Source: a virus. From it: a stretch of 64,000 bases of DNA. Location: the IMG/VR virus record IMGVR_UViG_3300044510_000078. The stretch is one strand, 5' to 3'. A program made the position numbers. Shown here one piece after another: positions 9,001 through 12,000 of the stretch. Position 1 is the stretch's first letter, and each line of letters begins with the position of its first letter.

Positions 9001-12000
9001 TTAACGTCAAGCCAGCAAACGCGGTGAATACAAAGGGGGCCGAGGGCTTTACCGTTATCGGAGAGGATTGGGCCAACGCGCCCGCCCGTTTCCACCTGAT
9101 GTATTGCCCGCGCAAAGCCGTCGAAATCAGCGGCGCACAGACTCGGAAGGAAGGCGAACAAAAGGAGCGTTGTCCTCATTTGGGCTTTAATCAATCGTCC
9201 ACTTGAATTTTTCGGGCGCGCTCACAGCTTCGGCCTCGCGCACCGTCGCCAGTGATTCGGCGATGAACTCCTTAGAAAACACGTCGGAGGGCAGGGTTTT
9301 AATGATGGATTCACCAATGAACAAGCCGCTACGCAAGGCGCGGTATTCGCTTTCCGTAAGGGTAATGGAGGCGGTTGAAGTCATGGGTGTATTATGCGGG
9401 TTTTTTGTTTCCTGTCAAGTGGGAAAGGCGCGGCAGGATTTGAACCCGCACCTTTTCAGGATTACGTTTCGGCGGCTTCGGTTTCCCGTGCGCTTACTAG
9501 GTAGCGTCTATCCCATTCCGCCACAGAGCCAAAGAGCAAATGATGTTTTGAGTATGCAGGATTTTTTCACCTTGTCAATCCCACCCGTAGCATCCACAAT
9601 AATAGGAGTCTCGCTCCCGTGTGGGACAATGTTCAAAATAGGGTAGGTTGGAGTTACTATCCACGATGGCGTGATTACCATACGTGCAAGACGCTTTCCG
9701 GCCAGTCAAATCGGGCATGGGAGCCTCGATATACGCGCCGGGGTCAAGTCCCGCACAAATCGCGCAACAGGGCTTCTTATCAAAAGAAGCGTTGGCCGCA
9801 TGGCCGCATTTCATAATGGGTATCATGGGTTAATGATAAAAGATTTTTGCGTCCCGTCAAGCCCTAATTGCCAATTCTGCTAACCCCCATTATCGAAATA
9901 TCCCCATACGCTTCGGATGCCTTTCGTATTGCGTCCATTTTGTTCCTAGCTCAAACGTGGCAATAGGTTTGTTCGCCGTTTTTCTTATACGTAACTTCAA
10001 AAAGGTAGGTATTCAGAGCTTTTTCCATCATTTTAAGCGCAAAAACCTCGCGCTCGTTTTGCCTTGTGGCAGACTGGTTTTCTTCACCGTTGGGATTTTC
10101 GCGGTAGGCTTTCATGCGCGGGGGCTATCTAATTCGCAAAAGACTTCAATGGCGAAGCTGGTATAATCATAATCCACCAATTCCAGTTCCCGCGCTTCGG
10201 ACGCAAAGGCCGCGTTCAACTCGGCGCGGTTTGCCGCCGCCCAAGTGAAGAAGTGAGGGGGCAAAACCCTTGCTTCAAGTTCGTCAATGAGAATGTCTTG
10301 CATGATGGGATAATAGGGGCTTTTGGGAATCTTGTCAAACCTTATGCGGGGCGGGCATACAAAACCCACGTCGGAACGCCCCACCCATAGCCCCGCGTAT
10401 CGGAGGCCACGGAAACGCGCCAGTCGGCGGGCAAGATACTGGCAAAGTCCGCCACGTCCGCATCGTCGGGTTTCTGCGTGTCCAAGCGAATTTCGGCGCG
10501 GGGTCCGCCCCCATCCTTGAAAAAGGCGGCAACGCGCCCCATCGGGGTTGAGCGGTTATGGGTGAAGTAGGGTGTCATGGGTGACAATATAGGGAATCTT
10601 GCGGGCCTTGTCAAGCCTTAAAGCGTTAGGGTATTATTCGTTCCCTTGCAAGATACCCAAGACGATACAAAGACAGAGAAACACCATCGCCCTAGTCCCC
10701 TTCGCACACGTCGCACCCGCCGAGGACTGTTTCCCATCGGCCCGTTTTGGGGTCGTAATGTTCAACGCTGACGCCACCCGCCCCCCGACAAAGCCAAATG
10801 CGACGACGTGGTTCCTTAACTTTCAAGGAACAGCATTGCCCGACGCAAAGGGTGGGCATTGCTTCGAGTTCCGCCGCGCTATATTCGCAAATCATGGGTG
10901 AATGATAGAGGATTTTAAGCCTTGTCAATGTCGAGCCCACAAAAAATAACGGTTTTTCTCATTCCGTTGCAACGGAACAAGCGGGATAACCGTGGGTTTG
11001 CATCTGGCCTGACGCTTACCCGTGAACCCGAAGGGCGGCACTAGCCGTTATCCCTCATTTACTCAGTGCTTTCCTGAGAGGCAAGCAGAACTCTGGCCCT
11101 GCTATCAGTCGGCGATTTCGCTGTATTGAACCCGCGCCGAACCAAACCTACGCTGTTTTTGAGTTTAGGGAGTCTCACGGGGCGATTACCTTATCCCGTT
11201 GCGAGTCTCGTTCCGCTAGCAGAACTGCACTCGCGACAATGTGAAATTAAATCTTTTTTGGGGCGGCGTCAAGAGCATACGGATTGATAAAGTTCTGCAA
11301 AAGATTACCGTCCGGCCCGACAAAGAAGCGCAAACCGATGCAGTTAGGCAATCCTGCTTTGGTAGCCAATCGGATAGCTTGCTGGCGTTGCTCATCGTTC
11401 AAACGGGCGAAGGGAAGGGCGTATTCATTATTCATATATGCAGCATACAGGAATGTTGCGCGCCGTCAAGCTGTAAAAACAACAGCAAGGCAACGAACGG
11501 AGGTAATGAGCATGGCGACAATGGCGGGCCAGTAAAGCCAATGATTGAATGGGTCCTGAGAATCGGGGGTTTGCATCAATAGGTTTCCAGAACCACCTTG
11601 CCGTTCGGAAACGTCTCGAAATGGCTCTTGCGGCCCGAAAAGTAGGTATTTCCAATCTTGAACCAATACCGGCCCCGCGAGAACCTTGTGGCGAGCAAAT
11701 GAAGGCCGCGATTGACTTCCCGTAGCGAGCTTTTATCCTCTGCCGTCAACACGGTATTACGCTTGGCAAACACACGCTCGCCAACGGAAAAACCATTGAT
11801 TTGTCCGTTTGTGAAGGCGTCAGAGGCTTGTTTGTAAGTCATGGAAACAGAATAAAGAAAATTCGGGCCTTGTCAAGCGTGGGGCGGCAAGACCTGTTGG
11901 AAAACAATGCCGCCCGATGACAAATCGTGCATCAATTTACGCATGACGCCATTGATGGTTTTCTGGCCGGTAAGTTGCCGCAGAATGGCCGCATCCGCTT

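What the first reader, a model, noticed from the sequence alone, without database searches (positions are those of the whole stretch)
10950..11272. About 290-nt structured RNA whose promoter is hidden in the end of the upstream gene
Seen: the -35 lies in the last codons of 11247..11435 and the -10 (TAATTT) overlaps its TAA stop. The transcript has at least six helices, including a UUCG-capped hairpin, a GAAA-containing loop, an 8-bp GGGATAAC/GTTATCCC domain stem and a terminal palindrome TTCCGTTGCAACGGAA. I do not recognise it as tmRNA, 6S, SRP or RNase P RNA. Inference: a candidate novel large phage ncRNA or ribozyme.
Basis: partly seen in the sequence, partly recalled or inferred. Interest (0 to 1): 0.7.

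Follow-up and report, generated by a model that had tools for sequence, protein, structure and literature searches.

The report
Orphan non-coding early phage RNA cassette
One slot in a large uncultured phage's array of single-gene early cassettes carries a promoter but no gene; it most likely makes a roughly 300-nt non-coding RNA that is a worn-down relative of the phage's tRNA-shaped RNAs, and nothing points to a ribozyme.

Summary
The sequence features are there. A promoter of the array's own type (-35 11272-11267, -10 11249-11244 over the TAA stop) points into about 300 nt with no gene. All three frames have stops, codon usage is non-coding, and there is no protein similarity.

The stretch matches no Rfam family, tRNA or tmRNA. 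The only other copy found is the same phage at 99.9% identity, so covariation could not be tested.

The fold statistics look good in isolation: whole RNA z -2.44, a 73-nt four-way junction z -3.76. But equally good folds occur at several places inside coding genes of the same array, so structure alone proves little. The "UUCG hairpin" is weak.

New here: the cassette is collinear with the neighbouring RNA cassette at 6918-6570, which has an intact tRNA T arm. The two share:
- the GUCG start;
- an 11-nt T-arm 5' half plus loop, whose 3' strand no longer pairs in this cassette;
- CCGAC;
- a 3' tail ending T6GTGGG just before the next promoter.

Best reading: a diverged, partly degenerate member of this phage's family of tRNA-derived early RNAs, function unknown.

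The parts
11267..11272 (-). -35 hexamer TTGACG, inside the last codons of the upstream 62-codon gene
   Evidence: the pattern occurs 51 times on the minus strand and once on the plus strand of 1-25.2 kb
11244..11249 (-). -10 hexamer TAATTT overlapping the TAA stop (11249-11247); the 17-nt spacer has the array's A-run
   Evidence: weight-matrix score 8.8, low for the array but far above background
11198..11237 (-). Predicted +1 (G11237, GUCG) and 5' rod hairpin (RNA nt 1-40)
   Evidence: -17.8 kcal/mol, z -3.04; helix probabilities 0.98-0.99. The start site is inferred from the 6-nt distance to the -10 that places the ATG in 37-38 coding cassettes
11108..11140 (-). T-arm remnant: CGCGGGTTCAA (11136-11126) followed by CCGAC (11112-11108), within a 6-bp stem UCGGCG/CGCCGA that has a 20-nt loop
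   Evidence: identical 11-mer in the intact T arm of cassette 6918-6570. The 3' T-stem strand here (CAGCG) cannot pair with GCGGG, as the sequence shows directly
11062..11103 (-). Two local hairpins (8 bp with a CAGA loop; 5 bp with a GAAAGCA loop)
   Evidence: probabilities 0.97-0.99; z -0.90, not better than shuffles
10982..11054 (-). 73-nt four-way junction closed by GGGAUAAC/GUUAUCCC, with three hairpins
   Evidence: -33.6 kcal/mol, z -3.76, minimum-energy fold is 0.76 of the ensemble. Unique in the window and in G001-G005. Comparable z values occur elsewhere in the array
10958..10981 (-). Terminal 10-bp hairpin containing the palindrome TTCCGTTGCAACGGAA
   Evidence: probability 0.91; z -2.75
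10936..10957 (-). 3' tail A5CCGTTA-T6-GTGGG, shared with cassette 6918-6570; likely transcript end or processing signal
   Evidence: the only two exact TTTTTTGTGGG in the window, both 16-18 nt before the next -35. Tail alignment scores 29 against shuffles 14.9 +/- 3.0 (0 of 500)
10895..10928 (-). Promoter of the next cassette, with its leaderless ATG at 10895-10893; it bounds the element

Best explanation
This is a non-coding cassette in the early-gene array of a large, uncultured lytic phage. A host sigma-70-type promoter of the array's own design starts transcription at G11237, where coding cassettes have the A of a leaderless AUG. The transcript runs about 297 nt to a hairpin followed by U6, just before the next cassette's promoter.

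The cassette is a diverged paralogue of the phage's tRNA-like RNA cassette at 6918-6570. It has the same GUCG start, a 5' rod hairpin, the 5' half and loop of a T arm, then CCGAC, and the same tail ending U6GUGGG. In this copy the T stem no longer pairs, so the tRNA-like module is degenerate.

The RNA is probably made early and protected by its 5' and 3' hairpins. If it still works, I infer that it acts as a stable decoy or partner RNA, like its tRNA-shaped neighbours, and not as a catalyst.

- Shown: the promoter, the absence of coding, the local hairpins, and the shared blocks with the neighbouring cassette.
- Inferred: the start site, the 3' end, expression, and any function.
For: - **Promoter.** It belongs to the array: 51 pattern matches on the minus strand against 1 on the plus strand, and a matrix score of 8.8 against background -27 +/- 10.
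- **Start position.** 37-38 array promoters have ATG exactly 6-7 nt after the -10. This one has GTCG there.
- **No coding.** The three frames carry 5, 8 and 3 stops. Codon scores are -0.21 to -0.26, against +0.23 +/- 0.09 for true ORFs. tblastn finds no similarity.
- **Known families.** No Rfam family matches at E <= 10 apart from noise.
- **Shared ancestry with cassette 6918-6570.** The 11-mer CGCGGGTTCAA sits in that cassette's intact T arm, which Rfam matches at E 4.8e-5. The module alignment scores 62.5 against shuffles 42.7 +/- 5.3, 0 of 300.
- **Shared tail.** The tail motif occurs only at these two cassette ends.
- **Possible closure.** The 5' GUCGCGA can close on nt 123-130 at a cost of only 2.4 kcal/mol.
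- **Stable end hairpins**.
Against: - **No homologue.** The only other copy is the same phage at 99.9% identity, so there is no conservation or covariation evidence.
- **Not kept by relatives.** The closest relatives of the downstream gene carry other cassettes upstream.
- **Weak fold statistics.** They are not exceptional against the array background, and the central 140 nt is unstructured.
- **Signs of decay.** The promoter scores low for the array and the T stem is broken, which equally fits a decaying relic.
- **Weak terminator.** The U6 tract lies 11 nt after the strong hairpin, so the geometry is not that of a classical intrinsic terminator. The scan called none here.
- **No expression data.**
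Confidence: 0.45

Rival explanations
1. It is a dead cassette: a decayed copy of a tRNA-like RNA cassette, or the scar of cassette shuffling. It is still transcribed from a weakened promoter but has no function.
For: - The T stem is broken while the T-loop and 5' strand are kept.
- The centre folds no better than shuffles.
- The promoter scores 1.4 sd below the array mean.
- No copy exists in any relative or collection searched.
- Fold z-scores lie within the array background.
Against: - The array is very compact, with many stop codons sitting inside the next -35, so 300 nt of junk is unusual.
- The 5' hairpin, the 73-nt junction (0.76 of the ensemble) and the terminal hairpin are well defined.
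- The shared tail motif is kept exactly.
Confidence: 0.3
2. It is a new large structured RNA with a fold of its own, possibly catalytic.
For: - About 297 nt with no ORF and a dedicated promoter.
- Whole-RNA z of -2.44.
- A very well defined four-way junction, z -3.76.
- No known family matches.
Against: - No ribozyme model matches, even weakly.
- Half of the RNA is unstructured.
- The statistics are matched by coding DNA nearby.
- No homologues, hence no covariation.
- The model of the junction finds no second copy.
Confidence: 0.06
3. It encodes one or two very small proteins from internal GTG starts: 11178..11059 (39 aa) and 11041..10925 (38 aa, preceded by GAGGG).
For: - Both ORFs exist.
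- The second has a Shine-Dalgarno-like GAGGG 10-11 nt upstream, and its TGA lies in the next -35, as for many genes of the array.
Against: - Their codon scores are 0.005 and -0.005, below every true ORF of the array (minimum 0.055).
- Array genes are leaderless with ATG.
- No protein similarity.
- The one SNP in the other copy changes the putative GAGGG to TAGGG.
Confidence: 0.05
4. It is a DNA-level or cis-acting element, not an RNA gene. Candidates are a primer transcript for a replication origin, a single-strand promoter of the plasmid leading-region type, or a recombination spacer between cassettes.
For: - ArdC, DUF932 and DUF2786 genes, typical of leading regions, lie in the same array.
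- A promoter followed by non-coding DNA and an A/T-rich tail recalls promoter-primed phage origins (own knowledge).
- Promoter plus stem-loop modules mediate cassette shuffling in T4-type phages (PMC2839356).
Against: - Single-stranded DNA folds are ordinary, z -0.86 and -0.72, with no long hairpin.
- No iterons or repeats are specific to the stretch.
- There is no GC-skew turn here.
- The stretch is not AT-rich: GC is 0.53.
Confidence: 0.06

Closest known systems
The phage's own tRNA-like RNA cassette at window 6918-6570
   Same: - Array promoter with +1 on GUCG.
- A 5' rod hairpin.
- CGCGGGTTCAA followed about 13 nt later by CCGAC.
- A tail of the form GAAT.A.AA.CC..T6GTGGG, 16-18 nt before the next -35.
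   Different: - That cassette has an intact T arm, matched by Rfam at E 4.8e-5. Here the 3' strand of the T stem does not pair.
- The regions between the shared blocks, including the 73-nt four-way junction, are unrelated in sequence.
Small stable RNAs of unknown function in the tRNA regions of T-even and T5 phages
   Same: Phage-encoded, non-coding, promoter-driven, lying among tRNA or tRNA-like genes, with function unknown.
   Different: - No sequence similarity to any cultured phage.
- This RNA is longer, at about 300 nt, and is not recognisably tRNA-shaped.
PeSL (promoter-early stem-loop) cassettes of T4-type hyperplastic regions (Arbiol et al. 2010, PMC2839356)
   Same: - Strong sigma-70-like early promoters flank single small genes.
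- A stem-loop lies ahead of the next promoter: here the 10-bp hairpin plus U6 ahead of the 10928 promoter.
- Cassettes differ between relatives.
   Different: - Here the mRNAs are leaderless and most cassettes have no stem-loop at all.
- This slot holds no ORF.
Large ornate or catalytic RNAs in Rfam (GOLLD, ROOL, HEARO, self-cleaving ribozymes, RNase P RNA, tmRNA, 6S)
   Same: Only the size range and the lack of an ORF.
   Different: No match at E <= 10 to any of the 4227 models, apart from two noise hits at E about 7.

Membership tests
Any Rfam 15 family (including tmRNA, 6S, SRP, RNase P, group I/II introns, riboswitches, self-cleaving ribozymes, GOLLD/ROOL/HEARO) | Covariance-model score at or near the family's gathering threshold | tested here: not met
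   - nothing at gathering score.
- the only matches on the element are CRISPR-DR36 at 11.3 bits (E 6.8) and Xist_exon1 at 8.8 bits (E 6.7).
tRNA / tRNA-like RNA | T arm: a 5-bp stem closing a 7-nt UUCRANY loop | tested here: not met
   The loop UUCAAUA and the 5' strand GCGGG are present (11134-11123), but the 3' strand is CAGCG, so only one pair can form (sequence).
tRNA / tRNA-like RNA | Cloverleaf recognised by tRNA or tmRNA finders | tested here: not met
   ARAGORN finds nothing at default or 90% thresholds. There is no Rfam tRNA-clan hit. The 73-nt four-way junction has no D-loop or T-loop consensus.
tRNA / tRNA-like RNA | Acceptor stem formed by the 5' end and the strand after the T arm | tested here: inconclusive
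   GUCGCGA (nt 1-7) can pair with UCG(C)CGAC (nt 123-130) with one bulge, at +2.4 kcal/mol over the minimum-energy fold. This competes with the 5' rod.
GUCG-start RNA cassettes of this phage | Array promoter with GUCG where coding cassettes have the leaderless AUG, and no ORF | tested here: met
GUCG-start RNA cassettes of this phage | Shared 3' tail T6GTGGG shortly before the next -35 | tested here: met
   The tail is shared with cassette 6918-6570 only; the other GUCG cassettes lack it.
PeSL-type cassette (T4-type phages) | Strong sigma-70-like early promoter combined with a terminator stem-loop | tested here: inconclusive
   The promoter is present. A 10-bp hairpin and U6 precede the next promoter, but 11 nt separate them, and the terminator scan calls nothing here.
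Single-strand DNA promoter (Frpo-type) of plasmid leading regions | A long imperfect hairpin of the single strand that rebuilds the -35 and -10 boxes | tested here: not met
   DNA folds of both strands give z -0.86 and -0.72 and are multibranched.
Structured RNA supported by evolution | Homologues with compensatory base changes | not testable with these tools
   - The only other copy is 99.9% identical, with one change in a linker.

The most novel reading that the evidence does not exclude
The 73-nt four-way junction, together with the flanking hairpins, is the working part of a new early phage RNA, for instance a decoy or partner for a host or phage RNA-binding factor. One candidate partner is the DUF2828/DUF7788 protein encoded at 46059-44539. 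On this reading it evolved from a tRNA-like ancestor and belongs to an uncatalogued family of promoter-driven RNAs that start with GUCG in phages with leaderless cassette arrays.
Probability: 0.12. Interest if true: 0.6.

Novelty: new member of a known kind. Interest (0 to 1): 0.3.

Why it matters
If the RNA is real and functional, it adds to evidence that large environmental phages devote several early, host-polymerase-driven cassettes to non-coding RNAs derived from tRNAs. That class is barely studied and may act in host takeover or against tRNA-directed defences. This particular copy is an orphan and partly degenerate, so it is a weak entry point. The better targets are its intact neighbours and the array architecture itself: about 50 leaderless single-gene cassettes, which also occur in an IMG/VR phage.

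Tried and rejected
**Known families**
- Rfam at gathering score and at E <= 10 on three spans gave nothing.
- ARAGORN gave nothing down to 90% thresholds; below that the calls are spurious.

**Searches for homologues of the DNA or RNA**
- blastn of the element against cultured phages and plasmids found no match.
- nhmmer and blastn against 1.6 Mb of fetched loci found only the same phage.
- An exact 22-mer found nothing in IMG/VR.
- Five IMG/VR records, including one with a similar array, were searched with the DNA and with a model of the 3' junction. Nothing was found.
- The model finds no second copy in the window.

**Anchoring on neighbouring genes**
- The 62-aa upstream gene has no relative in IMG/VR.
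- The 67-aa downstream gene has 21 metagenome loci and 2 MAG loci, none carrying the element.

**Pattern scans of collections**
- The promoter-signature scan of IMG/VR gave mostly chance hits, but it found L025, whose contig carries a related array.
- The tail-plus-promoter scans of IMG/VR and the genome collection gave only chance hits.

**Other ideas tested**
- The look-up of spurious ORFs in the element was invalid for six of seven entries. I gave references that lacked the initiator Met or included the stop.
- The single-strand promoter idea was rejected from the DNA folds.
- The pseudogene idea found no support from six-frame tblastn.
- Sequence similarity to the other ORF-less cassettes is absent, apart from the blocks shared with 6918-6570.
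- Two literature searches found no description of such an RNA.

Full report
**Setting**

The window has two parts: 1-25 kb at about 52% GC, and 26-64 kb at about 36% GC. No whole genome is held for it.

The low-GC part encodes an rIIA-like protein, an ATP-dependent DNA ligase, an RlaP-family protein, AAA ATPases and a DUF2828/DUF7788 protein. The 62-aa protein next to the finding occurs on a contig of 197,734 nt. This is therefore a large, uncultured lytic phage, and cultured phages are only distant relatives.

The high-GC part is an array of about 50 promoters of the form TTGAC(A/G)-N15-18-TAnnnT, all on the minus strand:
- The pattern occurs 51 times on the minus strand and once on the plus strand.
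- In 37-38 of them an ATG lies exactly 6-7 nt after the -10, so the mRNAs are leaderless.
- Genes are packed so tightly that many stop codons sit inside the next -35.
- ArdC, DUF932 and DUF2786/DUF7168 genes lie among them.
- A similar leaderless array occurs on both strands of one IMG/VR contig.
- The nearest described analogue is the promoter-early stem-loop cassette of T4-type hyperplastic regions (PMC2839356).

**The observation**

- -35 TTGACG at 11272-11267, inside the last codons of ORF 11435..11247.
- A 17-nt spacer with the array's A-run.
- -10 TAATTT at 11249-11244, over the TAA stop.

On a weight matrix built from the validated promoters it scores 8.8. The array scores 17.7 +/- 6.5 and background scores -27 +/- 10. 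It is therefore a real but below-average member of the array.

Where coding cassettes have ATG, this one has GTCG, so the predicted +1 is G11237. From there to the U6 tract at 10946-10941 is 297 nt.

The stretch does not look coding:
- The three frames carry 5, 8 and 3 stops.
- A codon-usage score trained on 37 array genes gives -0.21 to -0.26 in all frames. True genes score +0.23 +/- 0.09 and off-frames score -0.34.
- The two small GTG ORFs score about 0, below every real gene.
- Six-frame tblastn against all DNA held finds nothing.

So the slot is non-coding.

**Structure**

| Segment (RNA nt) | Feature | z-score |
|---|---|---|
| 1-40 | 5' rod hairpin | -3.0 |
| 41-176 | Centre, including two local hairpins | +0.2 to +0.9 |
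| 184-256 | Four-way junction closed by GGGAUAAC/GUUAUCCC; minimum-energy fold is 0.76 of the ensemble | -3.76 |
| 257-280 | 10-bp terminal hairpin | -2.75 |

The UUCG is a poor tetraloop. Only two pairs can close it, and the minimum-energy fold uses a UUC triloop.

The statistics are not exceptional in this DNA:
- The whole-RNA z is -2.44.
- Of 73 windows of 300 nt from 24.9 to 17.4 kb, 7 reach that value.
- Windows of 73 nt with z <= -3.76 occur at five or more other places in 22.5 kb, mostly inside genes.

Thermodynamics therefore neither establishes nor excludes a functional fold.

**Known families**

No Rfam family matches at gathering score, and at E <= 10 there are only two noise hits. 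ARAGORN finds no tRNA or tmRNA at thresholds of 90% or more. Single-stranded DNA folds are ordinary, which rejects a leading-region single-strand promoter.

**Homologues**

The only other copy is a 3.4-kb metagenome contig of the same phage. It has 3 differences in 3,364 nt, and one of them, G182U, falls in a linker of the RNA.

Other searches found nothing:
- The downstream 67-aa gene has relatives in 21 metagenome loci and 2 MAG loci, and none carries the element. The closest ones have other cassettes upstream.
- Cultured phages, plasmids, an exact 22-mer scan of IMG/VR, five IMG/VR records searched whole, and 1.6 Mb of fetched loci gave no match.

Covariation, the test that would decide the matter, could therefore not be run.

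**What it resembles**

About nine other slots of the array also lack a leaderless ATG.

One of these, at 6918-6570, contains an intact T arm, which Rfam's tmRNA model matches locally at E 4.8e-5. The present cassette is collinear with it in four blocks:
- The GUCG start, followed by a rod hairpin.
- The 11-mer CGCGGGTTCAA (11136-11126), which is the 5' strand and loop of that T arm.
- CCGAC about 13 nt later (11112-11108).
- A tail of the form GAAT.A.AA.CC..T6GTGGG, 16-18 nt before the next -35.

The supporting numbers are:
- The exact TTTTTTGTGGG occurs only at these two places in the window.
- The tails align at 29 against 14.9 +/- 3.0 for shuffles, 0 of 500. Part of that score comes from the shared TTGACA.
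- RNA nt 1-135 aligns to the tRNA-like module of the other cassette at 62.5 against 42.7 +/- 5.3, 0 of 300.
- The bare T-loop motif GGTTCRANN is common by chance, with 18 copies on the minus strand. The 10-mer GCGGGTTCAA occurs only here and in the window's two tRNA-like T arms.

In this copy the 3' strand of the T stem is CAGCG, which cannot pair with GCGGG, so the T arm is broken. The 5' GUCGCGA can still close on nt 123-130 at a cost of 2.4 kcal/mol. The 73-nt junction has no counterpart in the other cassette or anywhere else searched.

**Reading**

The best-supported account is a non-coding early cassette, a diverged and partly degenerate paralogue of the phage's tRNA-derived RNA cassettes. 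I infer that it is transcribed from G11237 to about 10941 and stabilised by hairpins at both ends.

Whether it still does anything is open. The compactness of the array, the exactly kept tail and the well-defined junction speak for function. The broken T arm, the unstructured centre, the weaker promoter and the absence from relatives speak for decay. I put a functional or at least genuine RNA gene at about 0.45 and a functionless relic at about 0.3.

The remaining readings each get about 0.05:
- A ribozyme or large ornate RNA.
- Small peptides.
- A DNA-level element.

**Verdict**

It is a new, orphan member of a known kind, the small phage RNAs of unknown function found next to tRNA-like genes. 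Interest is modest.

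Noticed in passing
window 1-25000 versus 26000-64000: GC content drops from about 0.52 in the cassette array to about 0.36 in the rest of the phage. The array looks compositionally foreign to the body of the genome.
   Followed up: no
window 22048-21744: The cassette at promoter 22048 has no ATG at +1, but its frame 0 has gene-like codon usage, score 0.24. An 82-aa GTG-start ORF lies at 21992..21744. It is probably a short-leadered coding cassette, not an RNA cassette.
   Followed up: partly
window 6585-6575 and 10946-10936: The exact motif TTTTTTGTGGG occurs only twice in the window, each time 16-18 nt before the next promoter and at the end of a long ORF-less cassette. 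It may be a shared termination or processing signal.
   Followed up: partly
window 18178-18425: A 12-nt tandem repeat of about 20 units lies inside small minus-strand ORFs of the array.
   Followed up: no
window 18733-18649 and 17317-17038: These are the most strongly folding 73-nt stretches of the array, z down to -5.7 and -4.3, and they lie inside ORFs. They may be embedded RNA structures or repeats.
   Followed up: no
G001 = IMGVR_UViG_3300031851_000046 (L025, L209-L211): This 45-kb IMG/VR phage contig at about 39% GC has the same architecture, TTGACx-N16-17-TAnnnT with ATG 6-7 nt later, in arrays on both strands: 7 on the plus strand and 16 on the minus strand. Leaderless single-gene cassette arrays are therefore not unique to this phage.
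   Followed up: partly
window 33051-46059: An ATP-dependent DNA ligase, an RlaP-family (RNA repair pathway) nucleotidyltransferase and a DUF2828/DUF7788 protein lie in the same phage as several tRNA-like RNA cassettes. This suggests a possible RNA-repair or RNA-binding theme.
   Followed up: no
window 5107-4990: In the 118-nt cassette that starts with GUCG, the 5' GUCGGGUGCGUGGCGG pairs with the 3' CCGCCACGCUCCGAC, forming a long closing stem that ends exactly at the next -35.
   Followed up: no
L003 1-230: The closest fetched relative of the downstream 67-aa gene (84% identity, GC 0.34) also has a leaderless-type promoter before it. Upstream it carries a different 49-codon ORF instead of the RNA cassette (the ORF was read by eye).
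   Followed up: partly
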